Part shown: in pieces, positions 10,730 through 42,404 of the stretch
Layout: each line of letters opens with the position of its first letter
Position numbering within the stretch: position 1 is the stretch's first letter
Assembly (NCBI GenBank): GCA_021463485.1
Contig: JAJTYJ010000002.1
Coordinates: forward strand, 108,638 to 172,637
Length of the DNA: 64,000 nt
From: a bacterium
GTDB taxonomy: Bacteria; Patescibacteriota; UBA1384; 2-12-FULL-50-11
Direction of reading: 5' to 3'
Program-made: the position numbers and the translations under genes
Notes under the pieces: model-generated
Told to the model about the DNA's origin: nothing
The model's input: the letters and a program-made list of their open reading frames with translations, nothing else
Databases searched by the model: none

Positions 10730-11818
10730 CTAAAATATTCCGGTGCAAACGTATGTTACTGTATCGCTGTAGGCGCCTGACGGCGCGAGATTTGAAACAG
10801 CCATTTTATGTGTGACCGTAACGATGCCGTTATTGATCGGACCGGCAGTACTCGCTAACTGTTGGCTTGCTCCAGCGCCAACCTCTAACCCGCCGACGGT
10901 GTTGCCGGTTTGGTTGTAGCGCGTGGCGATAGAGAGAGTGGCGCTACCAGCGTCTCCTTGGGTAGCGGCGCCTTGAATGCCGAAGCCGTCAACGTTATTT
11001 GAGAGCGTAGCGGTGTCGGCAAACGACGAGTTGGCGGAGCCGATCAAATACGTCGGTGCGCTACCTTTATATAGTCCCGGACTAGTCCCGTTGCCGTTGT
11101 CGTAGACGCTAATACTCAGCCCATTTGGCGCGTTCGTACCAGCAGTAACGGTTGTATTAGTTGCAGCCGTAATTATTACGCCGGTAGCGTCGGGGAAAGT
11201 AACTGTTAGCCCGTTGAAGGCGCAGCTGATTCTTGGCAACACGGCAACGCTTACGGTTGCGTCGTTGTCAGCGACGATCTCAAGTGCTAACGTTCCCGAT
11301 CCGCCGAAGGTTCCGCCTAGCGTTACCGTTGGGTCGGTGTCGTTCTGAGCTGCGGTTTGGTTAATGATTTGGTCGTTTCCAGTAGCACTAAAGGTTGCGT
11401 GAGTACCGATTTCGATAACAATAGTTGAGGAGCTAGCGATGCTGGTACTGCCAGTACAGAGGGTAAATGTGAAAGCGCTGTTATTAATGGAGGTGATATC
11501 AATTTCGTTTGCGGAGCACAGCCCGTTTGCGGTTATAGCCTTATCGACGCCGTCGTCGGTAATGTCAAAATCTTCTGGCTCCGTATTGGCAAATCCGGTG
11601 GTATCGAAGCTATTCGGAAAGTCTATAACCAACGTCTCGCCCGCGTCCCAAGAGTCGTTAATCGTAAACGTTAACGTATGATTGGCAGCGGTACTTTCTT
11701 TGATTGTTGATAGCGTATCTGAGAAATTACTAACTGTCGCTGCAAGCGCAAATTGGTTCGTTGGAAATAGGGTAGTAACAACGAGCGAAGCAATACTGAA
11801 CGCTCGCAACCAACGCAT
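10730..11818 (-). CDS. Secreted surface protein, paralog C (C-terminus …VTYVCTGIF)
   Basis: Signal peptide. Its N-terminal block (VSNFSDTLSTIKESTAANHTLTFTINDSWDAGETL…FANTEPEDFDITDDG) is nearly identical to that of paralog B. The start overlaps the stop of the giant gene (TAATG). Confidence 0.55.
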   Translation of the reverse strand: MRWLRAFSIASLVVTTLFPTNQFALAATVSNFSDTLSTIKESTAANHTLTFTINDSWDAGETLVIDFPNSFDTTGFANTEPEDFDITDDGVDKAITANGLCSANEIDITSINNSAFTFTLCTGSTSIASSSTIVIEIGTHATFSATGNDQIINQTAAQNDTDPTVTLGGTFGGSGTLALEIVADNDATVSVAVLPRISCAFNGLTVTFPDATGVIITAATNTTVTAGTNAPNGLSISVYDNGNGTSPGLYKGSAPTYLIGSANSSFADTATLSNNVDGFGIQGAATQGDAGSATLSIATRYNQTGNTVGGLEVGAGASQQLASTAGPINNGIVTVTHKMAVSNLAPSGAYSDTVTYVCTGIF

Positions 11819-24676: not shown

Positions 24677-25056
24677 TACAGACGTACTTTGCTGCTTTAA
24701 CAAGCGGGACCTTTGTTTTACCTACCACGGGAACAAAGGAGCGTAATCGCGAACATTTCGCGGTTACAAGAACAAACCAGCCGATGGACTGGCAAATTTC
24801 CATCCCTTTCTCGGTAAAACGAGAGAGTGCCAAACAATTCCAAAAAAACAAAACAGTATGTCAGCTGAAATGATTTATCATTTCGCTCGTAAGGTTCAGT
24901 AGGCTTTTATGTGAGTTAAATCTCAAAGAGTTTGACGAAGACGGTTTCGGCCGTCGGACACAAATTTCTTACCAAAAGGTAAGAGTTTGATCTGAGCACA
25001 ATTCTTCTGAAGAGTGCGAAGACAAACTCTCATAAAAATCCCTACAGGAATTTTTA

Positions 25057-26505
<1,449 letters not shown>

Positions 26506-26596
26506 AGAGGAATCTAGATGTCGACTCCGATCTATATCGGAGAGATGCTACCAATATAGGTAGCGAAAACGTTCTTGTAACCGCAAAGTGTTTGAA

Positions 26597-26627
26597 AACA
26601 AAAAAGAGGCTAAAGCCTCTTTTTTGT
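26597..26627. terminator. Bidirectional intrinsic terminator between the convergent 16S and tRNA genes
   Basis: A-run, hairpin agaggc-taa-gcctct, T-run. Confidence 0.55.
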
Positions 26628-26637
26628 TGCATATTCG

Positions 26638-26836
26638 TGGGCGATACTGGACTCGAACCAGTGACCTCGTCATTATACGCTGAGCGAACCGTTCAAATTT
26701 TGTCTGTGCGCGTACCTGGACTCGAACCAGGGACCTCGTCATTATCAGTGACGCGCTCTAACCAGCTGAGCTATACGCGCAAGGACAAAATTTGAATGTA
26801 TCAGTGACGCGCTCTAACCAGCTGAGCTAATCGCCC
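26638..26836 (-). tRNA. Split/intron-containing tRNA-Ile(GAU)-like gene: 5' exon 26798-26836, 125-nt insertion 26673-26797 at position 37/38, 3' exon 26638-26672
   Basis: 5' part is GGGCGAT-T-AGCTCAGCTGGTTAGAGC-G-CGTCA-CTGATA. 3' part is A-TGACG-AGGTC-ACTGG-TTCGAGT-CCAGT-ATCGCCC-A. The acceptor pair (GGGCGAT/ATCGCCC) and the T-stem pair (ACTGG/CCAGT) are perfectly complementary to each other and differ from those of the nested gene. The insertion holds the complete tRNA-Ile above, bracketed by the inverted repeat TTCAAATTTTGTC / GACAAAATTTGAA. Confidence 0.5.
26707..26780 (-). tRNA. tRNA-Ile (anticodon GAU), complete 74 nt, nested inside the interruption of a second tRNA-Ile gene
   Basis: Minus-strand cloverleaf: acceptor GCGCGTA/TACGCGC, D-arm TAGCTCAGCTGGTTAGAGC, anticodon stem-loop CGTCA-CTGATAA-TGACG, T-arm CCTGG-TTCGAGT-CCAGG. 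No encoded CCA. Confidence 0.85.
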
Positions 26837-27001
26837 TCGTTTCACTCGGGCGTTGCTTCGCAATCGCCCAATGGGCCGTTACTTTCGTAATCGCCTAAAC
26901 TATTAACCTGCCTGCTGGTGGCAAGTTACCAAACAATTGTACCGAATAATTGTCGTTCTATCCAGGTTCAGTTGGGGTAAATAATATGGCATACTACCGA
27001 T

Positions 27002-27583
27002 ATGGTTGCCGAAGACGCCAAGAAAAAATTTTCACATAAACAGGCGCTACAGTTGGTCGGATTTATTCTGTTGTTTGGTCTTTTTGTTGGTGGAATCTCG
27101 GCAATTATGAATAAGTTTCTTGCGCCACACATCGAACCGTTAACCGATATTATTTCGTACCATCCGTTCCGAGCGTTGGCCGGATACTTTCTATTTGTCA
27201 TGATCGCCTCGGTGTTTGTACCGATTCCAACACTGCCGGTAGATTTGTTGTTTTTTGAATACGTTGACCCGACAAGCGTTATTGTCGCTCGAGTTCTCGG
27301 TGGGGTGGCTGGAGGGAGTATTAGCTATTATTTGGCCTATAACTACGGCCGACCGCTATTAAAGCGATGGCTATCGAGAAAAAATTACGATTTTGTCGAG
27401 GGTGTCTCGAACGCCGTGAGCTGGAAACAATTTTTCATTATCACTATGATTCCGATCATCAACGCAGAACTAATGGCGTTCGTTGGAGGTGTTGGGAAAA
27501 TTGGCTATCGAAAAACTATCGGAACGTTGCTACTTGCGATCGCGTACCGAGTCCTGTTCGTTTACGCTGTCATCCAACGTTAG
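27002..27583 (+). CDS. DedA/TVP38 (VTT-domain) family membrane protein
   Basis: 193 aa, multi-TM, with a conserved PIPTLPVDLL…G VTT-like core. Confidence 0.55.
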   Translation: MVAEDAKKKFSHKQALQLVGFILLFGLFVGGISAIMNKFLAPHIEPLTDIISYHPFRALAGYFLFVMIASVFVPIPTLPVDLLFFEYVDPTSVIVARVLGGVAGGSISYYLAYNYGRPLLKRWLSRKNYDFVEGVSNAVSWKQFFIITMIPIINAELMAFVGGVGKIGYRKTIGTLLLAIAYRVLFVYAVIQR

Positions 27584-28995
27584 CGGCGTTTAATAATAAT
27601 GGCGTTAGGCAGGCTCCGGCCCGGGCCAATTTTGTAACTACTATTAAACATCATCGCACTCGATCCGCCGCCGTCGACGTTGAGCGCGTAATCGACGTCG
27701 AGCGCGTCCATTACTGCGGACAAATCCGGAACTGTGGCGCTGGTTGCAATTACTAAGTAGAGCGTTTGGCCCTTTAGCCCGATCGCGCCTCGATTCGATT
27801 TTGTTGTGCGTTGCTTGTCATCGAGCGAGCCTTCGTCGAGAATATTATTGCCGTTACTAATTAATGCTGGTTTGCAGTTGATACCGGCGACTCCAGCAAA
27901 CCCCGAACCGGCGTAGCTGCTCCAGGATGAAAAATATCTAGCGGTACCGGCGGAGTTAAAAGCGATAAACGGGTCGTTTTCGCCTAAGCCGTTGTTAGCG
28001 TTAATCATTTTACTGAGACGAGTATTGAGCACTTTCCAGAAGAACGAGCCGACTTGGCCGGCGCACGCTGAGTAATCGGCGGGGCAAAAATAGGTACCGT
28101 TCATGCCGGCAAAGCCGCCGTTACCACTGACGTAACTACTTAAGCTTTTGGTCGGGCAGTTATCGGTGCAATCGTTGTCGTTAGCGGTATCGGTGCTAAC
28201 AGCAAACTGACCGCTAGCTAAGTTAAAGGTTGAGAGATGGATACTGAAGCTACCGCGACTGGTTGCGATCGATATTTTCTCATACTTACTGTCGCCGTTA
28301 GTGGTGGAGGTCGTGGTGGTCGTACTGGTTTTTGCTTGCGTCTTTGTAAGTGCCAAATTAAGCGTTGTTGTTTGCTGAGCTGTAATACTAACGCCGGTTT
28401 TTTTAACCGAATTGTAACCGCTCTTTGATGCTGTGAGTGTGTATGTCCCGGCCGTAATCGTAAAAGTATAAGCGCCGTCGGCGGCGCTTGTTGTGGTAGT
28501 CGTTGTTGTGCCGTCTGTAAGTGTTAGCGACACTCCTGAGAGAAGTTGTTCGCCTTCTTTCACTACACCAACAAGTATTCCGGATTGGCGCTGTAACTCA
28601 GCGACTCGATTTATCTCCGTTTGAGTGGCAATTAGTGTTTCAACCACGGCGACTTGATCGCGAATAGTGTTAAAATTTTCAATCGTTTTAGTCGGATCAG
28701 AAATCCGTGATTTAATTTCAACAATTACTTTCTCAAGCGCCGCGGTGTCAGCTCCGATTGCCTTAGCAGCGTCAACTTTTTCCTGAAGTGTCTTGATTGC
28801 GGCGACTAATTGTAATTGTGAGTTATGCTCCAGCTCAACAGCCAACTGCTGATCGAGGCGATCGCTTTGCTGTTTCTGCAGCACGCTCTGAGCTTGCAGC
28901 GAAGCGATAATTATCAGAAACGTTACGATCAGTGACAAGCCGCGCCACTTATGGCTATGAAGCTCGTTCGAAATTGGTTGGAATAACCGATGCAT
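27580..28995 (-). CDS. Membrane-anchored extracellular protein: coiled-coil, CarboxypepD_reg-like beta domain, C-terminal phosphodiester-glycosidase (DUF2233/NAGPA-like) domain
   Basis: N-terminal TM. The segment at ~40-130 is heptad-rich. The run TTTTTTTSAADGAYTFTITAGTYTLTASKSGYNSVKKTGV resembles a CarboxypepD_reg-like fold. Near the C-terminus, ALNVDGGGSSAMMF matches the DGGGSS hallmark of the phosphodiester glycosidase family. Confidence 0.45.
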   Translation of the reverse strand: MHRLFQPISNELHSHKWRGLSLIVTFLIIIASLQAQSVLQKQQSDRLDQQLAVELEHNSQLQLVAAIKTLQEKVDAAKAIGADTAALEKVIVEIKSRISDPTKTIENFNTIRDQVAVVETLIATQTEINRVAELQRQSGILVGVVKEGEQLLSGVSLTLTDGTTTTTTTSAADGAYTFTITAGTYTLTASKSGYNSVKKTGVSITAQQTTTLNLALTKTQAKTSTTTTTSTTNGDSKYEKISIATSRGSFSIHLSTFNLASGQFAVSTDTANDNDCTDNCPTKSLSSYVSGNGGFAGMNGTYFCPADYSACAGQVGSFFWKVLNTRLSKMINANNGLGENDPFIAFNSAGTARYFSSWSSYAGSGFAGVAGINCKPALISNGNNILDEGSLDDKQRTTKSNRGAIGLKGQTLYLVIATSATVPDLSAVMDALDVDYALNVDGGGSSAMMFNSSYKIGPGRSLPNAIIIKRR

Positions 28996-29038
28996 GATCG
29001 TATTGTAACCGAAACGATGCGTTGCTACGGTTGGTCTG

Positions 29039-29974
29039 ATGAATATTCAGGAGAACGTCTCACTTGCTAACTACACAACGTTTAAAGTGGGTGGTCCGGC
29101 AAGGTATTTCTGCAACGTCGAAACGATCGAAGAGTTGCGTATGGCGCGTGATTTTGCCAATTCTAAAAACTGCCCGATCTTTGTTCTTGGCGCCGGGAGT
29201 AACGTGATTGCCTCGACAGCTGGTTTCGATGGGCTTGTTATTCACATCGATTTCAACTCAATTGAAGTAGACGGCAGGGTTATCCGCGCTGGTTCTGGAA
29301 GCCAGATGTACGATTTAGTTGACACGGCAGTTACGGCTGGGTTAGTTGGCCTGGAATGGGCGGGAGGACTGCCCGGAACGTTTGGCGGAGCGATTCGCGG
29401 TAACGCCGGCGCATTTAAGGGTGAAATTAAGGATACTATCCAATTCGTAACAGCGTTCTCTACTGCAACTGGCGAGATAAAGATTTTCGATAACCCCACG
29501 TGCGAGTTTGAGTATCGGGAAAGTTACTTTAAACGTCATCCGGTATGGGTGATTCTTAACGCAGAGTTATTGTTGAGTTCTGGTAACACTGAACAACTAC
29601 GATCGATCGCTGACGAACATATCGAGTTTCGTAAAACCAGACACCCACTCGAATATCCTAACGCTGGGTCGATGTTTAAAAATGTTCCGATCCAGACGAT
29701 CCCAACAGCAACGATGGAATTATTCAAAGACTTTGTAAAAATCGATCCGTTTCCAGTAGTCCCGACGGGCAAGATTATTCAAGACGCGGGGCTGAAAGGC
29801 TACCAAGTTGGGGGAGCGCAAGTTTCAGAAAAACACTGTAATTACATCGTTAACCGCGGTAACGCCAGTGGAGAGGATATACACCAGTTGGTGCTTGAGA
29901 TTAAAAAACAAGTACACGATAAATTTGGGATAAAGCTCGAGACTGAGCCGGAATTTCTCGGGTTTGACACTTGA
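29039..29974 (+). CDS. murB: UDP-N-acetylenolpyruvoylglucosamine reductase
   Basis: FAD-binding PCMH domain (GAGSNV). Catalytic blocks GGAIRGNAGAFKGEI and NAGSMFKN are present. Length is 311 aa. Confidence 0.88.
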   Translation: MNIQENVSLANYTTFKVGGPARYFCNVETIEELRMARDFANSKNCPIFVLGAGSNVIASTAGFDGLVIHIDFNSIEVDGRVIRAGSGSQMYDLVDTAVTAGLVGLEWAGGLPGTFGGAIRGNAGAFKGEIKDTIQFVTAFSTATGEIKIFDNPTCEFEYRESYFKRHPVWVILNAELLLSSGNTEQLRSIADEHIEFRKTRHPLEYPNAGSMFKNVPIQTIPTATMELFKDFVKIDPFPVVPTGKIIQDAGLKGYQVGGAQVSEKHCNYIVNRGNASGEDIHQLVLEIKKQVHDKFGIKLETEPEFLGFDT

Positions 29975-30030
29975 TTCTTAGGTTTATCTGTGATAGTATT
30001 GCTCTCGTTTCGCACATCAAGGAAGAAAGT

Positions 30031-30495
30031 ATGAACACAGCATTTTTGCTTCTCGCGTTGCTTGGCGTTGGCCAACCCCAACCCGTCTCTGCGCCGGTTT
30101 ACCAGAAACGAATTCTGGTGATCCTCGACCTCCAGAAGGTCTACGCCTTTGAAGGCGACAAGCTTGTCTTCGAGTTAAAGTGTTCAACGGGCCGCAAGGG
30201 TCTTGAGACGCCGTTCTCCACAGGCGAGCCATACAAGATCACCGCGAAAATTCCGGTCGGCAAAGCCTTGCCGGAGCTCGGCGGCGCCACGCTGCACTGG
30301 CAGATGAGGGTGCCGATGTACGACCCTAAACAAAAACGGGTCCGTCGGATCGGCTTTCACGCCTATCACGACGTGCCGGACTTTCCGGCATCGAGCGGAT
30401 GCATCAGGCTCAAAAAGCCTGATGCAAAGAAGCTGTTTGATTGGGCAGAGGTCGGCGTACCCGTCTGGGTGCACGAGACAGTGCCCATCTGCTAA
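30031..30495 (+). CDS. L,D-transpeptidase (YkuD domain), secreted, GC-rich
   Basis: Start taken at MNTAFLLLALLG, with AGGAAG upstream. Catalytic signature FHAYHDVPDFPASSGCIRL (H…SxGC[IV]R). GC is clearly above the genome background. Confidence 0.75.
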   Translation: MNTAFLLLALLGVGQPQPVSAPVYQKRILVILDLQKVYAFEGDKLVFELKCSTGRKGLETPFSTGEPYKITAKIPVGKALPELGGATLHWQMRVPMYDPKQKRVRRIGFHAYHDVPDFPASSGCIRLKKPDAKKLFDWAEVGVPVWVHETVPIC

Positions 30496-30522
30496 CGCTT
30501 TCCGTCCTCCGTTCCACCTCCA

Positions 30523-30551
30523 CCCGGGCTTCGGCCCGGGCTTTTTTATTG
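30523..30551 (+). terminator. Rho-independent terminator
   Basis: cccgggcttcggcccggg hairpin plus TTTTTTATT. Confidence 0.65.
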
Positions 30552-30555
30552 CCAA

Positions 30556-31017
30556 TACTTGACGAGAGGGTGTATTATTTTCTCACGGTTCACGACATGA
30601 ACTGTGTTCTTTCGACTGTGTGGGAGTTGAGGGTATGATAGCGACTTTAACTGTTGCAGTGGCGATTCAGTTCGCCGTACCGGCAGCATTGCCGAATCTC
30701 ATCACTTCCGCACCTCGCCGAGTGATCGTAACCAGAAACAGTACGGAGGCTGTTCTACCAAGCGGCTCGAGTGCACTTTCGAGCGACCGGCGTCCACAAA
30801 ACGCCGCCGTTATCGGACCTCGCCGCCAGACCCGTGCTTTGACTACTCCCAGGACGAGACCGTCTCAGGGAAGAGTGATCACCTACGAGGTGCCCGGCAC
30901 TTGACGGTGCCCCCAGAAGTCCAGGAATGGGCACGCTGGGGGCACCCCTTCCAAAGCTTGAACCTCCTTGTGGAGCCGAGCTCCCCCCGAACCATCCGGT
31001 CTCGGGGGATTTTTTAT
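30556..31017 (+). other. GC-rich promoter-to-terminator unit of unknown function (candidate leader RNA, ncRNA, or 94-aa secreted peptide gene 30620-30904)
   Basis: TTGACG at 30559. A strong intrinsic terminator (ccccccgaaccatccggtctcggggg plus T-run) sits at 30983-31017, immediately before the start codon of the next gene. There is an internal perfect 11-bp inverted repeat, ggtgcccccag…ctgggggcacc (30906-30945). The best ORF has an RBS but encodes a low-complexity basic peptide. Confidence 0.3.
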
Positions 31018-31031
31018 AGTAAGATACGGAC

Positions 31032-31544
31032 ATGCTTACCGTTCCCCATGCGCTTACTGGTGTTGCAATCGGCGTACTAGTAAAAGACGCTACAGCTGCA
31101 CCGCTTGTTGCCTTTGGTCTGGGCTGGGCGTCGCATTATGTGCTCGATACAATCCCGCACTGGGAGCGTTTGTACCGACCGCACGACGAAATTAAATTTG
31201 ATACGGATCAATCGGCGCGCGATTGGCCAAAGCACATCTTTGTCCAAGCAGTCTTAGACGTACTGATAGCTACTGGGCTGATTTTGTGGATCTATCAAAG
31301 CAGAGCTGAAGTTGGGAGCGTGATGCTTTGGGGCGCGTTAGGTGCCGTGTTACCGGATTTGCTCGATAACGTGCCGTTTTGGAATAGAACGCTTCGCCGT
31401 TTACCGTTCTTCTCGCAAGAACAGAAATTTCACGACTCAATTCATATTAACGAAGAAACGCAGCGACAAGTGCCAAAAATCTTAGGGCTTCTAACGCAAG
31501 TAACCGTTGTTGCTATTAGTCTGTTTATTATTTTCGCCGCGTAA
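31032..31544 (+). CDS. Membrane-bound metal-dependent hydrolase-like protein (YdjM/DUF457-like), tentative
   Basis: 170 aa with 4 TM helices and a His-rich N-terminal block HYVLDTIPHWERLYRPHDE. Confidence 0.3.
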   Translation: MLTVPHALTGVAIGVLVKDATAAPLVAFGLGWASHYVLDTIPHWERLYRPHDEIKFDTDQSARDWPKHIFVQAVLDVLIATGLILWIYQSRAEVGSVMLWGALGAVLPDLLDNVPFWNRTLRRLPFFSQEQKFHDSIHINEETQRQVPKILGLLTQVTVVAISLFIIFAA

Positions 31545-31569
31545 TCGGTGCTTCTGCTAGACTTACGAT

Positions 31570-31770
31570 ATGGGGATAATTCTCAAAATAATTGTACTGA
31601 TTGTCGGGCTGGCAGCGGGAGTAGCGATGCTGACACATAGTTATCAGTTAACACATCTATTCGGTTATAACTCGCTCGCTGAACGCTACCTTGGTACGGA
31701 TGGAACATACTCGATGTGGAAGATCCTCGGCGCGCTGACGATCATCGGAGCCGTTTTATATGTTTTTTAG
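31570..31770 (+). CDS. Hypothetical small membrane protein
   Basis: 66 aa with two TM helices. The 3' end overlaps the next ORF. Confidence 0.3.
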   Translation: MGIILKIIVLIVGLAAGVAMLTHSYQLTHLFGYNSLAERYLGTDGTYSMWKILGALTIIGAVLYVF

Positions 31771-32122
31771 AAAAGTACTGACTTGGATAGTATTTGTAGC
31801 GTTCTTTACGTTCGTCTTATTGATGTTTGTGACTCCCATTTTCCCAATTTTTAGCTGGGCACTGCCGTTAACAGCTGGGGATGGACAGTACATTATTTTC
31901 TTCGTCCTTGTATTGTTAATCTCGTTGCTCTCGCTTGCTCAAAAAATTGATTTTTGGCACGAAGCAAAGACCCCAAAGATTTGGGACGGTACAGAGGTTC
32001 CAAACAGCGCTAAGCCTATGATGTCCAAAATAATTTCGGCTGCAATTTGGTACAACATTGGTGTATCGGTGCTTTTTATACTAATCGCCATTGTTGGATT
32101 AGGTATCGTAATTACTCGATAA
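31760..32122 (+). CDS. Hypothetical membrane protein
   Basis: 120 aa with 3 TM helices. Confidence 0.3.
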   Translation: MFFRKVLTWIVFVAFFTFVLLMFVTPIFPIFSWALPLTAGDGQYIIFFVLVLLISLLSLAQKIDFWHEAKTPKIWDGTEVPNSAKPMMSKIISAAIWYNIGVSVLFILIAIVGLGIVITR

Positions 32123-32157
32123 TCTCCTTCGGATTAGATATAATACATAAGACTTTT

Positions 32158-32219
32158 GGGCCGTTAGCTCATCGCGAGCATAAGCGAGCGAGAGTAACGG
32201 CCCGAGTGCTAGCTCGGGA
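32158..32219 (+). repeat. Hairpin pair carrying a 15-nt duplicate of the tRNA-Ala 5' end (GGGCCGTTAGCTCAT)
   Basis: GGGCCGTTA…TAACGGCCC forms a 9-bp stem (32158-32204). It is followed by the palindrome cccgagtgctagctcggg. The first 15 nt are identical to nt 1-15 of tRNA-Ala, which lies 116 nt downstream. Confidence 0.4.
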
Positions 32220-32273
32220 GTTAGCTCATATTGAAACTTTATGTTGAGATAGGGCAAGGCACGAACGAAGTAA

Positions 32274-32346
32274 GGGCCGTTAGCTCATTTGGTAGAGCGC
32301 CGCATTTGCACTGCGGAGGTGTGGGGTTCGAATCCCCAACGGTCCA
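32274..32346 (+). tRNA. tRNA-Ala (anticodon UGC)
   Basis: Cloverleaf: acceptor GGGCCGT/ACGGTCC with the G3:U70 Ala identity pair, anticodon loop TTTGCAC, T-arm TGGGG-TTCGAAT-CCCCA. 73 nt, no encoded CCA. Confidence 0.9.
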
Positions 32347-32354
32347 CAACAAAA

Positions 32355-32382
32355 TTAAAGAAAAGCCCCTTGCGGGGCGGAT
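32355..32382 (-). terminator. Rho-independent terminator for the minus-strand dcd-like gene
   Basis: On the minus strand, gccccgcaaggggc is followed by TTTTCTTT. Confidence 0.55.
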
Positions 32383-32383
32383 G

Positions 32384-33388
32384 TTATGACTCCCATGGTC
32401 GGAACTGCTTGGCAAGCGTAATGCCTTGCTGCCCTTGGTAGTGTGACTTACTGCGATTTGCAGAGTTCTCGCCGTAAACTTGGTCTGGTACGTCATCGAG
32501 GCGTTCGAAACGCAGGATACTTATGCGTCGTCCATTCGCCAGCTGTGCGGCACCAGCACCAACGTTGGTGATCTCACAGACTATTGTTGAGCCGTTGAGC
32601 TCGCCATGTCGTCCGTGCCCGAAGCCAGGATCTATGAAGCCGGCATCGTGATAGCGGATTTCGCCATGAGCGGGATTGAACGGCATCATTTCAGCGCAGT
32701 AGCCCGGTGGAATCCGAACGTGTTCACGCGTTCTTGCCAATGCGAATTGCCTTGGTTCGAGATGGATAATGCCGCGGGCATCAAGTCCCTTGTCGTAAAA
32801 GTATTGTCCCGGATACTGAGAACGTCTTTCCCAAAGGGGGAGAGTTCTGCGAGTGTCGTGAGCGACCAAGATCGCCGGTTCTCCGGTCAAATCCAAATGG
32901 AGCATCATTCCCTCGTCGCAGAAAACCGGCTCGCAGTCAGTATTTCCGATTAGAGGCGACTGTCTATGAAGGTGTTCAAGCTCCCAACCCTGGAGAAATC
33001 GTCGCTTGCCACTGACAATCCTCAGTTGAGCCAGCGTCTCCGTTTGGCGGATATTGACCGGGAAAATGCGCGGCGTAATAAGCAAGTACAACTTGCCTCT
33101 ATAGCCGGCTGGAACTGCGTCAAATTCCTTACCGTTCTCGCAGATGAGCTTGCAGTGGATCGCGTTGCGGCCCGTTGAACTTTTCGGATTGGCGAAAGCT
33201 GAAAGCGTCGAAGGCAGGTGGCACTCCATATCTAGTTGCGCTAGGTATGTCTGGCCTGGTGAAAGCGTCAGCGACTTCCCATCGAAGTTGTTGAGATCAA
33301 ACTTCGTTTGTTGGTAATGCTTGATGAAGAACTTTTCGATAGTGACGTTTGCACTGAGGTCTGGTTCTCCGGCGACTAGACGGATCAC
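32384..33388 (-). CDS. dCTP deaminase/dUTPase-superfamily protein, long (334 aa) form, GC-rich
   Basis: The C-terminal block YHDAGFIDPGFGHGRHGELNGSTIVCEITNVGAGAAQLANGRRISILRF matches the Dcd/dUTPase beta-barrel motif (GxIDPGF…E…N…QL). GC is high. Confidence 0.5.
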   Translation of the reverse strand: MIRLVAGEPDLSANVTIEKFFIKHYQQTKFDLNNFDGKSLTLSPGQTYLAQLDMECHLPSTLSAFANPKSSTGRNAIHCKLICENGKEFDAVPAGYRGKLYLLITPRIFPVNIRQTETLAQLRIVSGKRRFLQGWELEHLHRQSPLIGNTDCEPVFCDEGMMLHLDLTGEPAILVAHDTRRTLPLWERRSQYPGQYFYDKGLDARGIIHLEPRQFALARTREHVRIPPGYCAEMMPFNPAHGEIRYHDAGFIDPGFGHGRHGELNGSTIVCEITNVGAGAAQLANGRRISILRFERLDDVPDQVYGENSANRSKSHYQGQQGITLAKQFRPWES

Positions 33389-33574
33389 GTTCGTGATCGG
33401 CAGATCGATTGATGCGGCCTGGATGTATTGGGGGCGACAACCAAAGACGGTCGGCTGCCCTCGGTAAGACTACGAATTTGTTTGTCGACTAAGACTCCCA
33501 TAGTTGCTCCTGATTGTGATGTGCGACTGCACTGCCGACAGTATATCCGTTAGTGGCTGAATATCAATGAGTAT

Positions 33575-33603
33575 AAAAGAAACCGCCCTTACGGGCGGTG
33601 GGT
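33575..33603 (-). terminator. Rho-independent terminator (minus strand)
   Basis: ccgcccgtaagggcgg hairpin followed by TTTCTTTT on the minus strand. Confidence 0.55.
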
Positions 33604-34038
33604 CTGGTCTGGCACGTTTGTGAGATCTTGAATCTCACGGACGTACCAGAGATGGTCGTCGTTGGGAGGCTTGACCTCCGATGCCGCGTAAACGAGGCGG
33701 TAGTCGTTCAGCATTGCTCTGATCTCGGCCTGCTCGCTGAAGCTAATTTCGCGACAGCCCGAACTTAAGATTGAGTAGAGCCTTGTCAGCTGCGCGTCAA
33801 TCAGTTTCAGGAAATTGAAGAGGATGACCACGTCTTGGCCTCTTAACCCCTTGCCTCGCTGTTCGAGCTCGGTGCGCATATTGATGAGCGCGTGGCAGGC
33901 GCCGCACAGGTGTTGCCCGAGTTTGTCAGTTCGAGTCAGTTCACGCACGAGGACGTCGCCGTGATTAGTTGAATCCGCCGCTTGTTGGGGCACTGCGGCG
34001 AACAAGTTCTGAATGAATCGCCAGATGGAAAGGAACAT
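33589..34038 (-). CDS. Hypothetical protein (GC-rich island)
   Basis: 149-aa ORF with high GC. I recognise no family. Confidence 0.35.
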   Translation of the reverse strand: MFLSIWRFIQNLFAAVPQQAADSTNHGDVLVRELTRTDKLGQHLCGACHALINMRTELEQRGKGLRGQDVVILFNFLKLIDAQLTRLYSILSSGCREISFSEQAEIRAMLNDYRLVYAASEVKPPNDDHLWYVREIQDLTNVPDQTHRP

Positions 34039-34170
34039 TTTTCACCTCACGCCGAACCGTTGTGCATAGTTTACCTAATTTTAGTTGGTATGTCACCGGT
34101 TTTACACTAAATACTCTGGATTTTCTTATTAGTTCTCGCTAGAATGCCCTAGCACATTAATAGGAGTGGA

Positions 34171-35007
34171 ATGAACAGTCTCACGCTAACGCATTCAGTA
34201 ACCATCAAGGGTCGAAACTTATTTGGCCTGCCGTCAAGCATTACCTTTCATCCGGGACCGCTCGATAACCCGGGTTGGTATTGGCTAGATCGCGGTCGAC
34301 TTGTACCGATCACTAGCGTCATGGCAACGACGAAAAAACGCCGGATCGTGTTGGAGATGAGCTTCACCAAGCAGCTCCAAGTGTTCGAGCATATCGGATT
34401 TCTGCGCTGGATGGGGTTTAGTAACCTCGTGATTGAAGCCAATGGTTGGCCGCCGTTTTGCGGCGGGGCGCTGTTCTACTACGAACGTCTGCGAGGAGTA
34501 GCGGTTGTAAGATCCGAGAAAGTCTCGCACCGCACGGTTACCGGTCTTTGTGACTGGATTTACCCTCAAAAAAGGCAAGAGCGATGGGGGGTCGAGATCT
34601 GGCCCGGGAATAGCCCGACGCTGCAGATCAACATCGAGTGCGACTTTCCTGGGGAACTCGGCAAGTTCAGTAAAGAGCTCTCACTGCCAAACGACGATTT
34701 ACTAATGGAAATCCTTCAGGCGAACACTGTCGGGTTACCCCACTGGCTCTACTGGCCAGCACGAGCTCTGCTGCCAAGAAAGTCTCGATCAATCGGCTGG
34801 GTTAAACAACTCGGCGTTGAGCAATTCCGAGAACGAATGCTGCTGCATCGAGCGCAAGATCTGCTAGGTGCACTGAGTTTTCTCTGCGACGGCAACCATC
34901 TATTCGCCGGTAGCGTTAAATCTCGGTGCGCTGGTCATGAGGCAGATATCTACGCTGTTCGCGACGCTTCGACGAAGCTCCGTTCGCTTTCCGTTCAGTT
35001 GCGCTAG
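34171..35007 (+). CDS. LpxC-family (UDP-3-O-acyl-GlcNAc deacetylase-like) zinc amidase, GC-rich
   Basis: It aligns block by block with LpxC. The N-terminal stretch TLTHSVTIKGRNLFGLPSSITFHPGPLDNPGWYWLDRGRL corresponds to LpxC TLKRIVQATGVGLHTG…RRTDL. VFEHIGFL…NLVIEANG…PPFCGG covers the EH and DGSA blocks. LLHRAQDLLGAL corresponds to HKMLDAIGDL (the HxxxD zinc site). CAGHEAD carries the second His. GGAGTGG lies upstream of the ATG. Confidence 0.6.
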   Translation: MNSLTLTHSVTIKGRNLFGLPSSITFHPGPLDNPGWYWLDRGRLVPITSVMATTKKRRIVLEMSFTKQLQVFEHIGFLRWMGFSNLVIEANGWPPFCGGALFYYERLRGVAVVRSEKVSHRTVTGLCDWIYPQKRQERWGVEIWPGNSPTLQINIECDFPGELGKFSKELSLPNDDLLMEILQANTVGLPHWLYWPARALLPRKSRSIGWVKQLGVEQFRERMLLHRAQDLLGALSFLCDGNHLFAGSVKSRCAGHEADIYAVRDASTKLRSLSVQLR

Positions 35008-35014
35008 GCACCGC

Positions 35015-35878
35015 CTAGCGCTTTTTTTGACAGTCTGGGCAAAAATGACTTGATCGGCCGGCGATTTTAATCCGTTCGATCGGTGTACCACAGACGGTGC
35101 AAGGCATCCCTTCTCTTTTATAAACGTTGGCGACGGCTAGATAGGTTCCCATTCTGCCGTCCGCTTGTCGGTAGCTCTGGCTGCTGGTACCGCCGTGCTT
35201 TAAGGCTTTATTAAGTACTGTTGGGATATTTTTGAAAATTGTTTGGATTTCGTTCGGTTCTAATTCATTTACTCTAGTTTGAGGATGAATTCTCGATAAA
35301 AATAGCGTTTCGTCGGCGTATATATTTCCGATCCCAGCCACAATTGTTTGATCTAGGAGTAATTGTTTGACGGTAATTGTTTTTTTACGAGCCAGTTTTT
35401 TCGTAAAATACTCAAGTGAAAATTCAGGCCAGTCGTATTCTGGTCCTAGCGTATGAACGTGCGGCTCAATTTGTTCGGCAGAATCCACCACTTTAATCCA
35501 ACCGAACTTGCGAAGATCGTTGAAATAAAGTTTACCGTGATCTAACTCAAAAATTACATGAGTGTGTTTATGTGGTAGAGAAAACGAGTACGCCGGGTCT
35601 GGGTGACCGCCGACTACCATATCTTGTTCGGTTGCGCCATTGGGAACAAATATCAGCTGTCCAGTCATTTTTAAATGTATAAGCAAGAAACTGCGTTCAA
35701 GTTTGATAATTAATATTTTGGCCCGTCGAGCGATTTCGACAACTGCTTGGTTGGTAATAGTTTCGGGATTGCCAAAGAACAGTTTTTTACCCCGAACATC
35801 GACCGAACGAATTCGATGTCCAACCAACATTTTTTCTAATCCGACCCGGATGGTTTCAACCTCTGGTAGTTCTGGCAT
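35015..35878 (-). CDS. fpg: Formamidopyrimidine-DNA glycosylase
   Basis: N-terminal MPELPEVE with catalytic Pro2, an H2TH region, and a C-terminal zinc finger CTVCGTPIERIKIAGRSSHFCPDCQ. The true start is taken at the second Met. Confidence 0.9.
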   Translation of the reverse strand: MPELPEVETIRVGLEKMLVGHRIRSVDVRGKKLFFGNPETITNQAVVEIARRAKILIIKLERSFLLIHLKMTGQLIFVPNGATEQDMVVGGHPDPAYSFSLPHKHTHVIFELDHGKLYFNDLRKFGWIKVVDSAEQIEPHVHTLGPEYDWPEFSLEYFTKKLARKKTITVKQLLLDQTIVAGIGNIYADETLFLSRIHPQTRVNELEPNEIQTIFKNIPTVLNKALKHGGTSSQSYRQADGRMGTYLAVANVYKREGMPCTVCGTPIERIKIAGRSSHFCPDCQKKR

Positions 35879-35960
35879 TTGAGGGGATTGTGGCAAAAAC
35901 GAGGGTAAAAAAATAGGGCGGCTCCGCAGTTGTCTGCGTGCCGCCCGGTGAGCCGAAGCT

Positions 35961-37136
35961 CTAGTTGATGGTGATCTCGACCTTGACGGTGTGGGGCCAG
36001 TGGTCCGCGATCGCCGACCAAACGTCGTAGCCGGCGAACGCCCAGTTGTAGAAACCAGGTTCGAGCGTCATCGTCTCGTTGTTGGCGAAGGTCAGTGTGA
36101 TGTTGGTCTCGTGCCACCCCGGGTTGCCGTTGTCGAACATCAACTGCGCCACGCTTTCGAGCCCGTTGGCTACGAATAGCGATTGGAAGTTCATGTCGTC
36201 GAGACGACAAACACGGTGAGTTGTCGAGCGCCCGTTGGCGTTGACGACGAGGTTGATCCACTGCGTCTCGCGAGTTCGTTCGACGAGGATGCCCGTGTTT
36301 CGATCTTGAGCGATACCACCCTGGAATTCTCCGGCCGGGACTGCCAACTTGAAGCTACCCCAGAAGGGATCTCTGACAAAGGCAACCACTCGGGCTGGTG
36401 AAACCGGCATACCGTTGAACGGTGAGCCGTCCCAGTTGAGTGGATGACCAAAGCCAACTGACTCGTTCTTGTTGAGATCGTGCGTCAGTGTTCCGATCGC
36501 GAACATCTTCACTAGCGGGCCGTCGAACGGCACAACTGCCATTGACTTGCCGGCGATCAGCTCAAAACCCGGTCCGCCACGAGTGGCTGCGTGGGCTTGA
36601 CTGGTCGGACCAGCGTCGATGAAGTGGATGTTGCTCTCCTTGAACTTGTTGACTGCGCGATCCGACACCCCAACGCCGAACCATGCCAACTTTGTCTGGA
36701 ATGACTGGTTCGAAGCGCTGGCTTGACGGCCGACTGCACTGAGCATCTTGTCTACCGGCGTAATGAGGACGTTGTCCCCACCGTAGGAGCCGGAGAGGGC
36801 TCCGATAGTGTGGCCGTCTGGTGTCAGGATCGGAGATCCCGAATCGCCGAAGCCGAATTTGGCGTCTGAGTCCTTGAAGGTCAGATAGTCGTTGGCGCCC
36901 GCAGTGTAGCGGTTGCCGAGCGTGATAGGAACGAAGACGATCCCACTCTCACGTTCGACCATGGCGAACGCGCGGTCACCGGCCTTGAGGGCGTTGATTT
37001 GGGTAGTGGTGAGGGGGACATCGCGAAAGGCGATGTTGGTGTTGGAACCGCTTCCGGTACCAGCACCGTTGCCTCCGCAGCCGACGAGGAGGAGGGCAAT
37101 CAGGATTGCCACGATGGATTGCGTAACTTTCTTCAT
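35961..37136 (-). CDS. Lipoprotein of unknown function carrying a GDSGSP motif (not a canonical chymotrypsin-fold protease)
   Basis: Lipobox MKKVTQSIVAILIALLLVGC. GDSGSPILT occurs only about 70 residues after the signal peptide. No His precedes it. GC is high. Confidence 0.45.
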   Translation of the reverse strand: MKKVTQSIVAILIALLLVGCGGNGAGTGSGSNTNIAFRDVPLTTTQINALKAGDRAFAMVERESGIVFVPITLGNRYTAGANDYLTFKDSDAKFGFGDSGSPILTPDGHTIGALSGSYGGDNVLITPVDKMLSAVGRQASASNQSFQTKLAWFGVGVSDRAVNKFKESNIHFIDAGPTSQAHAATRGGPGFELIAGKSMAVVPFDGPLVKMFAIGTLTHDLNKNESVGFGHPLNWDGSPFNGMPVSPARVVAFVRDPFWGSFKLAVPAGEFQGGIAQDRNTGILVERTRETQWINLVVNANGRSTTHRVCRLDDMNFQSLFVANGLESVAQLMFDNGNPGWHETNITLTFANNETMTLEPGFYNWAFAGYDVWSAIADHWPHTVKVEITIN

Positions 37137-37263
37137 GTTCAGGTTCGATCCTCCCGATGGTTCGGGTAACTCCGTTGAGTCGCGAGGAATAGTACCTGAA
37201 ACTACTTAAAAAGTCAATCAGTTAGGACGATATTTTACGTGTAAAAAAATACCCCCGAAGGGG

Positions 37264-38088
37264 TTAGTTGATCCGAGTCATGAGAACGGTCGCTTTCTGC
37301 GGCCGCTTTTCGTCTGGGTCGGTGGTGTTGTACTCGTAGCGAGCGTCATCCGAGCGTAGCTCTTTGCAATCGGCGCTCAATGTGAACGTGCCAAGGATTT
37401 GGGCAAACGACGGTTTACTACCGTACTTGAGCAGGAATTTGAATTTCCCGTCTTTGCTGGCGTTACCGTGAACTTTGCCTTTGCGCCAATCGCCGTCGTC
37501 GTAGGTGCCAAGTATCCGATAATTGTCGCTGATCGTGAACTCGATCGGGTGATCGGTGCCTGTTAATACGTACTTACCTTTCCAGTCAGCGATAAGCGAC
37601 GGCTGAGCCAAAAATTTATCTTTGGCAGTAGTGCGATCCCCGACACAGTCGAGATTGGCTTGATACTGGTTTGAACCGTGCACGAACACCATCGTGCAGG
37701 CTGGCCAGCCGCTGTCGTCTCGAACAACTTCGCCGGTTGCCTTAATCTCGCCGTCAGCGAACTTTAGAACTGGTTGGAGTGTAGATCCGACCGATCTTCC
37801 ACTAATCGTAAACGGTTTTAAGCCGTCTTTTGTCCAAAGCGCCCCGCGACCGTCTAACCGATACACGATCTTGCCGTTTTCACGTCCAGACTCCTGCGTA
37901 AATCGCAGATCGTCGAACTGCCCGGCGAAGCCGTTAGTGACCCAGTGCCCGTTGATCGGACTAAAGGCGACCAACTGCTTGATCAGCGCGTCGTCAGACG
38001 ACGCCGAACTGGTCTTTGGAGTGGCGCATCCGCAAAGAAGGAGAAGGAGCGCAAAGCGCGCGGTTGTTGCTAATACTGAGAAGTGCAT
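37264..38088 (-). CDS. Hypothetical lipoprotein
   Basis: Signal plus lipobox …LLLLCGCATP. 274 aa, no recognised domain, high GC. Confidence 0.4.
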   Translation of the reverse strand: MHFSVLATTARFALLLLLCGCATPKTSSASSDDALIKQLVAFSPINGHWVTNGFAGQFDDLRFTQESGRENGKIVYRLDGRGALWTKDGLKPFTISGRSVGSTLQPVLKFADGEIKATGEVVRDDSGWPACTMVFVHGSNQYQANLDCVGDRTTAKDKFLAQPSLIADWKGKYVLTGTDHPIEFTISDNYRILGTYDDGDWRKGKVHGNASKDGKFKFLLKYGSKPSFAQILGTFTLSADCKELRSDDARYEYNTTDPDEKRPQKATVLMTRIN

Positions 38089-38168
38089 ACTGTCACCTCG
38101 CCCAATTGGGCGTTGCTCTATTCAAGCATTCTTGAACAAAACGAGCAAATACTTCTATATAGAACGAT

Positions 38169-38604
38169 GGAAATAAAAATTGCTCGAATTCGTGATAGTG
38201 TCGAAGTACCGAAGTACGTTCCCGAGTCTGCGGCTTGTTTCGATCTTCAAGCAGCCGAGTCGGTCACGGTAAAACCAAACGAAGTAGTAAAAGTTCCTTC
38301 GGGGTTAATTGTTCATGTGCCACCAGGTTACTTATTGGCGATCGCGCCACGCTCAAGCGCTCCAAAATACGGTATTAGTATGCCGCACTCGTTTGGAATT
38401 ATCGATCCGACGTACTGCGGCCCAGAAGACGAAATATTAATTCAGATTCAAAATCGAACCGAGAAACCGATCGAAATTGAGCAGGGACAGAGGATCGCGC
38501 AAGGATTCTTTGTGGAGGTTCCAAGGGTAATTTGGAAAGAGGTTACTAAAGATGAGCTAGCGCCAAATTCGCGCGGCGGTTTCGGCTCAACTGGTGCCGT
38601 TTAA
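38169..38604 (+). CDS. dut: dUTP diphosphatase
   Basis: Start taken at MEIKIARI. The dUTPase motif-3 block is GIIDPTYCGPEDEILIQIQN. A terminator hairpin follows. Confidence 0.8.
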
Positions 38605-38889
38605 TTACAGCTACCGTTCCTAACGCAGAGTCTTGACGCAATATGCGCAAATATGGGACAATCACCAGGTACATGTTAGGAAAAACACAAGGAGGCGTCG
38701 GTTTATAAGAGACCACTATTTTGGGGTCACCTTAGAAGCCGCTCGCCAAAGCGGTTTTTTCTTACCTCTGATGAATACTTAACAACTAGGTTTCCAAGCT
38801 GAAGTCGAAGACAATTCGACGACAGCACAACTTCAGATATGGTTCCATAATCATATTTGAAGCAAGTAACAGCAACGCGAAAGCGTTAG

Positions 38890-41838
<2,949 letters not shown>

Positions 41839-41945
41839 TTTTCTGCGCGTAATTTCTACGCAGGAAAGAAGGAACGTCGCCTGAATTGTCTTCGACTTTG
41901 GTTTGGAAACCACAACAATATAACGTTCTCGGATGGAGGTGAGCT

Positions 41946-42188
41946 ATGGCGAAGTATATCGTGAAATGCTCAGCATTAGACAACCAACACAAATCCAAGC
42001 GGGTGAACAGCCCGGAATTCGACGCGAAAAACGATGCCGATGCGATCAAGCTCGCCGGCGGTCATGTTGACGCATTAATCTCCGAACACTCACTCACCGA
42101 TGGTCAGTACAAGGTCTATCGCTGTAAGCGACTGTTCTCATCGGAGAAATGTATTGCCGAGGGTCCGATCACCCCTCAGCGCTACTAG
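41946..42188 (+). CDS. Hypothetical small protein (80 aa) encoded in the 23S-5S spacer
   Basis: Strong SD GGAGGTG lies 5 nt before the ATG. The ORF ends 85 nt before 5S. There is no TM helix. Sequence is MAKYIVKCSALDNQHKSKRVNSPEFDAKNDADAIKLAGGHVD…. Confidence 0.4.
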   Translation: MAKYIVKCSALDNQHKSKRVNSPEFDAKNDADAIKLAGGHVDALISEHSLTDGQYKVYRCKRLFSSEKCIAEGPITPQRY

Positions 42189-42272
42189 ACCTACCTCGGC
42201 GAGCTCGCTCGCCACTCTATCCGAGCACGTTATAGTGAGATCTGTAATTGAAGTTAAGCGTTTGAACTTTTT

Positions 42273-42391
42273 ATCTTGGTGTCTCGAGCGACAGGGGTAC
42301 ACCTCTTCCCATTTCGAACAGAGAAGTTAAGCCTGCCAGCGCCGATGATACTCAGGGCTAACAGCCCTCGGGAAAGTAGGCCGACGCCAAG
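42273..42391 (+). rRNA. rrf: 5S ribosomal RNA
   Basis: The terminal helix pairs tcttggtgtc with gacgccaaga. Internal blocks cccatttcgaacagagaagttaagcc and cgccgatgatact match the 5S consensus. Length is about 119 nt. Confidence 0.85.
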
Positions 42392-42404
42392 ATAAAGAGT
42401 TTAA

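What the first reader, a model, noticed from the sequence alone, without database searches (positions are those of the whole stretch)
34171..35007. LpxC-family deacetylase in a genome window with no other lipid A genes
The protein aligns block by block with LpxC, including the zinc-ligand EH, HxxxD and second-His positions. LpxC is the committed step of lipid A synthesis. In a Gram-positive-like or CPR-like organism it would need a different substrate, for example a deacetylase acting on a GlcNAc-containing glycolipid or polysaccharide. Otherwise it is a recently acquired passenger gene. It is also short (278 aa) compared with canonical LpxC.
Basis: partly seen in the sequence, partly recalled or inferred. 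Interest (0 to 1): 0.55.

Follow-up and report, generated by a model that had tools for sequence, protein, structure and literature searches.

The report
Divergent LpxC-like deacetylase in Patescibacteria
A tiny-genome CPR/Patescibacteria bacterium, a group not known to make lipopolysaccharide, keeps a strongly conserved enzyme with the fold and metal-binding catalytic residues of the lipid A enzyme LpxC but with the fatty-acyl and nucleotide-binding residues replaced, so it most likely removes an acetyl (amide) group from some other, still unknown, substrate.

Summary

The organism is a close relative of Patescibacteria bacterium BroJett034. The scanned ORFs of the 64-kb window include a full peptidoglycan cluster and no Raetz-pathway gene.

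The protein belongs to a discrete family: about 200-300 clusters at 50% identity, and all four named genomes are Patescibacteria. Members are unnamed or "hypothetical". The family keeps the Zn triad, the general base and the general acid in at least 135 of 138 sequences. At positions that an E. coli mutational scan shows are nearly immutable, it carries residues that scan did not recover (D246 to Ala, G210 to Trp/Pro, F192 to Gln/Val, R190 variable). It also lacks the UDP-phosphate lysines.

Best reading: an active cytoplasmic Zn amidohydrolase, repurposed from LpxC, with a non-lipid-A substrate. This is a new variant of a known kind. The substrate is unknown, and whole-genome absence of lpxA/D/B was not tested.

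The parts
34171..35007 (+). LpxC-like (LpxC-fold) putative Zn-dependent amidohydrolase, 278 aa. Catalytic set: E73, H74, H226, R227, D230, H256. Family-specific: D259, W210, P95.
34162..34166 (+). Shine-Dalgarno AGGAG, 4 nt upstream of the ATG
   Evidence: Read directly from the sequence.
35001..35021 (+). Intrinsic-terminator-like hairpin (GCGCTAGGC-ACC-GCCTAGCGC) followed by T7. It overlaps the stop codon and lies between the convergent LpxC-like and fpg genes.
   Evidence: Consensus scan. The scan is not proof of function.
35015..35896 (-). Fpg/MutM DNA glycosylase, the convergent neighbour. It is conserved next to the LpxC-like gene in BroJett034 and in the 77%-identical relative. It is a positional marker, with no functional link implied.
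   Evidence: Pfam. Synteny.
33589..34038 (-). Divergently oriented 149-aa ORF with no Pfam hit, conserved in BroJett034 at 92% aa. Its relation to the LpxC-like gene is unknown.

Best explanation
The gene encodes a cytoplasmic, metal (Zn2+)-dependent amidohydrolase. It descends from LpxC and uses the LpxC catalytic machinery. In that mechanism a metal-bound water is activated by Glu73 as general base. The metal is held by His74, His226 and Asp230. His256 acts as general acid, and Arg227 takes the place of Lys239. The enzyme no longer acts on UDP-3-O-(3-hydroxyacyl)-GlcNAc.

It belongs to a discrete sister family of LpxC found so far only in Patescibacteria/CPR, organisms that are described as monoderm and as lacking lipid A synthesis. 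The acyl-chain groove is closed or remodelled: the Gly lining the groove is replaced by Trp, or by Pro in this protein. The UDP-phosphate-binding lysines are gone. The Asp that orients the catalytic His has apparently moved from the Ec D246 position (Ala here) to D259. The pocket has gained conserved Trp, Arg and His residues. The most likely substrate is therefore a polar, probably sugar-type, N-acetylated (or otherwise amide-containing) cytoplasmic metabolite or cell-envelope precursor.

Shown: homology, fold, conservation of the catalytic residues, loss of the substrate-binding residues, purifying selection, and taxonomic setting.
Inferred: catalytic activity, metal identity, cytoplasmic location (no N-terminal extension before strand 1 of the fold), relocation of the Asp, and the class of substrate.
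For: Homology and fold.

Catalytic residues conserved in 138 family sequences: E73 135, H74 137, H226 137, R227 136, D230 137, H256 137.

Substrate-site changes:
- Ec D246 -> Ala in 95/138 (Asp in only 6)
- Ec G210 -> Trp in 118/138 (Pro in the window protein)
- Ec F192 -> Gln in 84/138 (Val in the window protein)
- Ec R190 variable (Asn in the window protein)
- Ec K262 -> Cys in 82/138
- Ec K143 -> Ala/Arg/Gly (Trp in the window protein)
- New near-invariant D259 (136/138) at Ec N268, and invariant W210

Experimental benchmark: in the E. coli deep mutational scan, the only residues recovered at these positions were D at D246, A/G at G210 (which lines the acyl groove), F/I/M/W/Y at F192 and K/R at R190 (PMC9842644). 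[quoted passage not shown]

Working gene: dN/dS 0.075 and 0.074, SD and terminator.

Setting: Patescibacteria. No Raetz gene in the scanned ORFs of the window or in the neighbour annotations of relatives that were shown (first 25 of 46 families). CPR genomes are reported to lack lpxC/kdsA (PMC5220378) and described CPR organisms are monoderm (PMC8871954).
Against: - No biochemical data exist, and the substrate is unknown.
- No conserved operon partner gives a hint.
- Alignment in Insert II is the least certain region, although HMMER and HH-suite agree on it.
- The window protein's own subclade differs from the family majority in Insert II: P-R-K instead of W-P-H, with a 4-residue deletion.
- The rest of the roughly 0.7-Mb genome could not be searched for lpxA/lpxD/lpxB.
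- The DMS tolerances come from E. coli and need not transfer to a protein that is 15-19% identical.
- The roles of Ec K143 and K262 in UDP-phosphate binding rest on my recollection of the LpxC literature and were not checked here.
Confidence: 0.7

Rival explanations
1. It is a genuine, merely fast-evolving LpxC (EC 3.5.1.108). It would work in a cryptic or reduced lipid A-like pathway in this bacterium, for example on UDP-3-O-acyl-GlcNAc made by a divergent LpxA, or on acyl-GlcNAc intermediates scavenged from a host.
For: Full-length collinear homology with an intact Zn triad, general base and general acid. T186 and G188 of the GlcN-binding loop are kept in the window protein. Insert II keeps a vestigial beta-alpha-beta topology in the model. 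Many ORFs in the window have no recognisable family, so divergent partners could hide there.
Against: It carries residues that the E. coli scan did not recover at D246, G210, F192 and R190, and it lacks both UDP-phosphate lysines. There is no hit to the curated LpxC models, and relatives reach at best E 1.7e-7 on the equivalog TIGR00325. No Raetz genes appear in the scanned ORFs of the 64 kb or around relatives. CPR genomes are reported to lack the pathway and fatty-acid synthesis (PMC5220378).
Confidence: 0.12
2. It is a catalytically dead LpxC-fold protein (a pseudoenzyme) retained for a structural, binding or regulatory role.
For: The Asp that orients the catalytic His (Ec D246, where the E. 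coli scan recovered only Asp) is Ala. The oxyanion Thr is not universal in the family: T/S in 95, A in 23, P in 15 of 138.
Against: Six catalytic or metal positions are each conserved in at least 135 of 138 very divergent sequences (mean column identity 23%). This is hard to explain without catalysis or at least metal binding. A compensating near-invariant Asp (D259) appears three residues after the catalytic His.
Confidence: 0.1
3. It is a recently acquired passenger gene, obtained by horizontal transfer from a Gram-negative donor and decaying, with no role in the host.
For: It lies about 0.7 kb from a strain-variable segment next to tRNA-Ala. GC is slightly above the window mean (z = +1.4).
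Against: dN/dS is 0.07 at both 96% and 77% amino-acid identity. The gene lies outside the swapped segment and keeps its fpg and 149-aa neighbours in three genomes. Codon-usage distance ranks 24 of 44. About 207 clusters score E<=1e-30 and form a family distinct from canonical LpxC. All named genomes are Patescibacteria. None was found on viral contigs.
Confidence: 0.03

Closest known systems
LpxC, UDP-3-O-acyl-N-acetylglucosamine deacetylase (EC 3.5.1.108; Pfam PF03331; NCBIfam TIGR00325; CAZy CE11)
   Same: - Collinear over Ec residues 2-277.
- Same metal triad (H79/H238/D242), general base (E78) and general acid (H265).
- G264 and G193 are kept.
- Same size as Aquifex LpxC.
   Different: - 15-19% identity.
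- The window protein is invisible to PF03331 and TIGR00325.
- D246 -> Ala, with a new Asp at the N268 position.
- K239 -> Arg.
- Groove-lining G210 -> Trp/Pro; A215 -> His/Lys/Arg/Asn in most members.
- F192 -> Gln/Val.
- K143 and K262 are lost.
- The PIMDGS motif is replaced by (W)PP(Y/F)xG.
- Insert II is about 7 residues shorter.
- There is no Ec-type C-terminal tail.
- It is found in monoderm, LPS-less Patescibacteria with no Raetz-pathway neighbours.
LpxC-FabZ fusion proteins (NCBIfam NF009667 / PRK13188)
   Same: The LpxC domain gives weak hits with 11 of 29 family members, best E 1.5e-5.
   Different: The family has no dehydratase domain. Members are single-domain-pair proteins of 260-300 aa.
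Functional analogues with unrelated folds: LmbE/PIG-L-type de-N-acetylases (MshB, BshB), NagA, and CE4 peptidoglycan deacetylases (own knowledge, not tested here)
   Same: They are metal-dependent removal of N-acetyl groups from GlcNAc-type substrates in monoderm bacteria. This is the kind of chemistry proposed here.

Membership tests
LpxC (PF03331 / TIGR00325, EC 3.5.1.108) | Scores above the curated family-model thresholds | tested here: not met
   The window protein has no hit at E<=1 in Pfam or NCBIfam. Ten relatives score 21.6-54 bits against the 27-bit Pfam cut-off. The best TIGR00325 E-value among 29 members is 1.7e-7.
LpxC (PF03331 / TIGR00325, EC 3.5.1.108) | Two-domain LpxC fold | tested here: met
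   [not shown]
LpxC (PF03331 / TIGR00325, EC 3.5.1.108) | Zn ligands His79, His238, Asp242 (E. coli numbering) | tested here: met
   H74, H226 and D230 are each conserved in 137 of 138 family members. The same columns align in HMMER and hhalign. Metal binding itself was not tested.
LpxC (PF03331 / TIGR00325, EC 3.5.1.108) | General base Glu78 and general acid His265 | tested here: met
   E73 in 135/138 and H256 in 137/138.
LpxC (PF03331 / TIGR00325, EC 3.5.1.108) | Asp246 orienting His265 (only Asp recovered in the E. coli DMS) | tested here: not met
   A234 in the window protein. The family has Ala 95, Thr 11, Gly 10 and Asp 6 of 138. DMS: PMC9842644.
LpxC (PF03331 / TIGR00325, EC 3.5.1.108) | Small residues lining the acyl-chain groove / hydrophobic passage (Gly210, Ala215) | tested here: not met
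   Gly210 -> Pro202 in the window protein and Trp in 118/138. Ala215 -> Ser207 in the window protein (tolerated in E. coli) but His/Lys/Arg/Asn in most of the family. The shape of the passage itself could not be measured because no coordinates were available.
LpxC (PF03331 / TIGR00325, EC 3.5.1.108) | GlcN-binding loop Arg190-Thr191-Phe192-Gly193 | tested here: inconclusive
   The window protein has N185-T186-V187-G188: Thr and Gly are kept, Arg and Phe are replaced. In the family, Thr/Ser occurs in 95/138, Gln at the Phe position in 84/138, and Gly in 131/138.
LpxC (PF03331 / TIGR00325, EC 3.5.1.108) | Basic residues binding the UDP diphosphate (Lys143, Lys262; roles from my knowledge of the LpxC literature) | tested here: not met
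   Lys143 -> Trp139 (family Ala/Arg/Gly). Lys262 -> Cys253 (Cys in 82/138).
LpxC (PF03331 / TIGR00325, EC 3.5.1.108) | Genome also encodes the rest of the Raetz pathway (lpxA, lpxD, lpxH/I, lpxB, lpxK, waaA) | not testable with these tools
   None was found in the scanned ORFs of the 64-kb window, nor in the neighbour annotations of relatives that were shown. The remaining ~0.6 Mb of the genome could not be retrieved. The literature says CPR genomes lack the pathway (PMC5220378).
LpxC (PF03331 / TIGR00325, EC 3.5.1.108) | Deacetylates UDP-3-O-acyl-GlcNAc | not testable with these tools
   Needs biochemistry or complementation.

The most novel reading that the evidence does not exclude
The family is a vertically inherited relic of the Raetz pathway. 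Under this reading, an LpxC that survived the loss of the outer membrane in the ancestor of Patescibacteria was recruited to a new cytoplasmic de-N-acetylation step.

One attractive candidate substrate is a MurNAc- or GlcNAc-type cell-wall precursor or salvage intermediate. MurNAc carries a small anionic 3-O-lactyl group at the same sugar position where LpxC's substrate carries the 3-O-acyl chain. That would fit a closed acyl groove and the newly conserved Arg and His residues.

If true, it would be a molecular fossil supporting a diderm ancestry of CPR, and it would define the first non-lipid-A activity of the LpxC fold.
Probability: 0.15. Interest if true: 0.8.

Novelty: new variant of a known kind. 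Interest (0 to 1): 0.55.

Why it matters
LpxC is treated as a single-function enzyme: the committed step of lipid A synthesis, a marker gene for LPS-bearing outer membranes, and an antibiotic target. A conserved, apparently catalytic LpxC-fold family in bacteria regarded as monoderm and LPS-less matters in three ways.

- It would be, as far as I know, the first indication of a second substrate specificity for this fold (CAZy CE11).
- It is a caveat for using weak PF03331 hits as evidence of LPS synthesis or diderm status in genome surveys. Several members sit just above the Pfam threshold.
- It could bear on whether CPR descend from diderm ancestors.

It also gives a tractable target: a small soluble protein for which a substrate screen and a crystal structure are feasible, in organisms whose envelope biochemistry is largely unknown.

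Tried and rejected
- **Single-sequence searches.** Pfam, NCBIfam and PDB gave nothing. Only profiles and structure revealed the relationship.
- **Operon and context inference.** I called ORFs in 19 loci and clustered neighbours within +/-5 genes. I read precomputed annotations for four contigs. I ran a bulk Pfam census of 54 neighbours. No recurrent partner appeared. Impressions of peptidoglycan or nucleotide-metabolism neighbours were not reproducible across loci, so I dropped them.
- **Widening the family with the word-indexed search.** Using the 138-sequence profile added only two members.
- **Metagenome scan with the broad alignment.** It failed for lack of a conserved stretch. A 29-sequence subset then gave 13 loci.
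- **Viral contigs.** No member was found.
- **AFDB Foldseek.** This would have given organism names and database descriptions, but the library was unavailable.
- **Model coordinates.** They are not exposed, so I could not measure the tunnel or pocket or check the D259-H256 geometry.
- **Literature.** Searches for LpxC with Patescibacteria, CPR or Saccharibacteria, for 'LpxC-like' and for 'BroJett' found no description of this family.
- **Phylogenetic placement.** I did not attempt to place the family against canonical LpxC clades. The tools returned only the best 150 representatives, all from the family itself, and give no taxonomy for canonical sequences.

Full report
**1. The observation**

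An AGGAG Shine-Dalgarno lies at 34162-34166. A strong hairpin followed by seven T's at 35001-35021 overlaps the stop codon. The gene is therefore a self-contained unit, convergent with fpg (35015-35896, -).

On its own the protein is not recognisable as LpxC by standard tools. It has no Pfam or NCBIfam hit at E<=1, and only noise in PDB sequences.

**2. Homology and fold**

A word-indexed search of 5.8 billion proteins found only six relatives. A profile of these (A1) aligns end to end with Aquifex aeolicus LpxC: query 8-271 against chain 9-266, E = 4.6e-11.

An exhaustive HMMER search of 1.84 billion cluster representatives found 207 clusters at E<=1e-30, 319 at E<=1e-10 and only 828 at E<=1e-3. 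The best 150 are nearly all 250-300 aa, apart from a few shorter fragments and a few of up to 346 aa. Aquifex LpxC scores only about 45 bits against this profile. The family is therefore discrete and well separated from canonical LpxC.

hhalign of the 138-sequence family alignment (A2) against E. coli LpxC gives 98.3% probability, E = 1.5e-14, over 259 columns.

**3. Organism and setting**

The genome-collection scan returned four loci, all from Patescibacteria. The best is BOKZ01000001.1, 'Patescibacteria group bacterium BroJett034' (685-kb contig), at 96% amino-acid identity. The others are a Saccharibacteria MAG, a Parcubacteria MAG and an unclassified Patescibacteria MAG. The window is collinear with BroJett034 at 94-99% DNA identity.

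The window carries:
- housekeeping genes;
- a full dcw/peptidoglycan cluster (mraW, ftsI, a Mur ligase, mraY, murD, ftsW, murG, murC, a murB-like gene, ftsQ);
- alanine racemase;
- a second murB;
- an L,D-transpeptidase.

It carries no Raetz-pathway gene among the 43 ORFs I scanned of the 49 ORFs of >=150 aa. This holds even when the unannotated ORFs are rescanned at E<=0.1. The six ORFs left unscanned overlap a larger ORF or the 23S rRNA gene.

Published CPR analyses state that lpxC and kdsA are absent (PMC5220378). Described CPR organisms are monoderm (PMC8871954). Public sources give the family no name, or call it 'hypothetical protein'. I found no paper describing it.

**4. A working resident gene, not a passenger**

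dN/dS is 0.074 against the BroJett034 orthologue and 0.075 against the 77%-identical P0002 gene. GC and GC3 are within 1.5 sd of the window's genes, and codon-usage distance ranks 24 of 44.

The gene, the divergent 149-aa ORF and the convergent fpg are conserved in BroJett034. The gene and fpg are also conserved in the P0002 contig. An adjacent segment next to tRNA-Ala has been swapped between strains, but the gene lies outside it. No member was found on viral contigs.

**5. What is kept and what is lost**

I aligned 138 family sequences with E. coli and Aquifex LpxC. The Insert II correspondences were confirmed independently by hhalign.

Kept in the family:

| Window residue | E. coli equivalent | Role | Conserved in |
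|---|---|---|---|
| E73 | E78 | general base | 135/138 |
| H74 | H79 | Zn ligand | 137/138 |
| H226 | H238 | Zn ligand | 137/138 |
| D230 | D242 | Zn ligand | 137/138 |
| H256 | H265 | general acid | 137/138 |
| G255 | G264 | next to H265 and the pyrophosphate | 133/138 |
| G188 | G193 | GlcN-binding loop | 131/138 |

Changed in the family:

| E. coli residue | Family | Window protein |
|---|---|---|
| K239 | Arg 136/138 | R227 |
| D246 | Ala 95/138, Asp only 6 | A234 |
| N268 | Asp 136/138 | D259 |
| G210-S211-F212 | Trp 118 / Pro 96 / His 111 | P-R-K, after a 4-residue deletion |
| A215 | His/Lys/Arg/Asn in most | S207 |
| F192 | Gln 84/138 | V187 |
| R190 | variable | N185 |
| T191 | Thr/Ser 95/138 | T186 |
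| K143 | Ala/Arg/Gly | W139 |
| K262 | Cys 82/138 | C253 |

The family also has its own conserved residues: W36, W38, W93-P94-P95, and an invariant W210.

An E. coli deep mutational scan gives an experimental yardstick (PMC9842644). At its least-tolerant positions the only residues recovered were:
- D at D246;
- A or G at G210, which together with A215 'lines the acyl-binding groove';
- F, I, M, W or Y at F192;
- K or R at R190.

[quoted passage not shown] By these criteria the family keeps the chemistry of LpxC but not its substrate site.

The roles of K143 and K262 in UDP-phosphate binding come from my own knowledge of the LpxC literature, not from a source read here.

**6. Context**

Neighbour clustering in 19 loci found no recurrent partner beyond close relatives. 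The same is true of the precomputed annotations of four contigs and of the Pfam census of 54 neighbours. The neighbours are scattered housekeeping genes such as tRNA synthetases, NusA, Obg, SSB, type IV pilus parts and RNase J. Context therefore gives no clue to the substrate.

**7. Interpretation**

The best explanation is an active, cytoplasmic, metal-dependent amidohydrolase. It derives from LpxC, uses the same acid-base and metal mechanism, and acts on a substrate other than UDP-3-O-acyl-GlcNAc (confidence about 0.7).

The gain of conserved Trp, Arg and His residues around a closed acyl groove suggests a polar, sugar-type and possibly anionic N-acetylated substrate. That step is inference.

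The rivals are:
- a fast-evolving true LpxC in a cryptic pathway (about 0.12);
- a pseudoenzyme (about 0.10);
- a recent passenger gene (about 0.03).

**8. Membership, novelty and what could not be done**

Formally the window protein fails the curated LpxC models. Its relatives straddle the Pfam threshold at 21.6-54 bits against a 27-bit cut-off. They reach at best E = 1.7e-7 on TIGR00325.

I file it as a new variant of a known kind: a sister family of LpxC with altered specificity. It is not a member of the LpxC equivalog.

Three things could not be done:
- **Pocket measurement.** The passage could not be measured because coordinates are not exposed.
- **Phylogeny.** The family could not be placed in a taxonomically annotated LpxC tree.

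Noticed in passing
window 25052-42392: The rRNA genes are unlinked. 16S is at 25052-26503 (+) and 23S-5S at 38898-42392 (+), separated by about 12.4 kb of protein-coding genes that include the LpxC-like gene. tRNA-Ile (26706-26780) is on the opposite strand to the 16S, and tRNA-Ala (32274-32347) lies 5.8 kb downstream.
   Followed up: no
window 32348-33506 vs L003 4892-9337 and L021 916-4326: There is a strain-level module swap next to tRNA-Ala. The window strain has a single dCTP deaminase (32384-33388, -). BroJett034, otherwise 94-99% identical, and the P0002 contig carry instead a block of CTP-transferase-like, dCMP deaminase, a 175-aa ORF, DHFR and ThyA. These are two alternative pyrimidine/dTMP modules at one locus.
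   Followed up: partly
window ~40261-40276; L003 16092-16429: The BroJett034 23S rRNA gene is 3260 nt against 2938 nt in the window. The roughly 320-nt insertion matches no Rfam intron family at gathering thresholds.
   Followed up: partly
window 29039-29974 and 58891-59886: There are two MurB-like genes. One has FAD_binding_4 plus MurB_C and sits next to an L,D-transpeptidase. The other has only the FAD_binding_4 hit and sits inside the dcw cluster.
   Followed up: no
window 6001-18423 (-): A block of probable surface proteins: a Big_1/CarboxypepD_reg protein, four consecutive ORFs of 326-369 aa with no Pfam hit, and a 2201-aa giant protein with only faint hits.
   Followed up: no
window 35961-37136 (-) and 33589-34038 (-): Two neighbours of the gene are compositional outliers with no Pfam family. 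One is a 391-aa protein with a lipoprotein-like N-terminus (…LLVGCGG…), GC3 0.73, z = +2.9. The other is the divergent 149-aa ORF, GC3 z = +2.5. Both are conserved in BroJett034.
   Followed up: partly
L001 4520-5161: The contig carrying relative P0004 has a LAGLIDADG_2 homing-endonuclease ORF and a DUF5671 protein. I took these as CPR-like features from my own knowledge. Whether the endonuclease sits in an rRNA intron was not checked.
   Followed up: no
family-wide (P0003-P0011, P0042): Many members of this non-canonical family score just above Pfam's LpxC gathering threshold (28.6-54 bits against 27). Automated surveys could therefore count them as evidence of lipid A synthesis in Patescibacteria.
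   Followed up: partly
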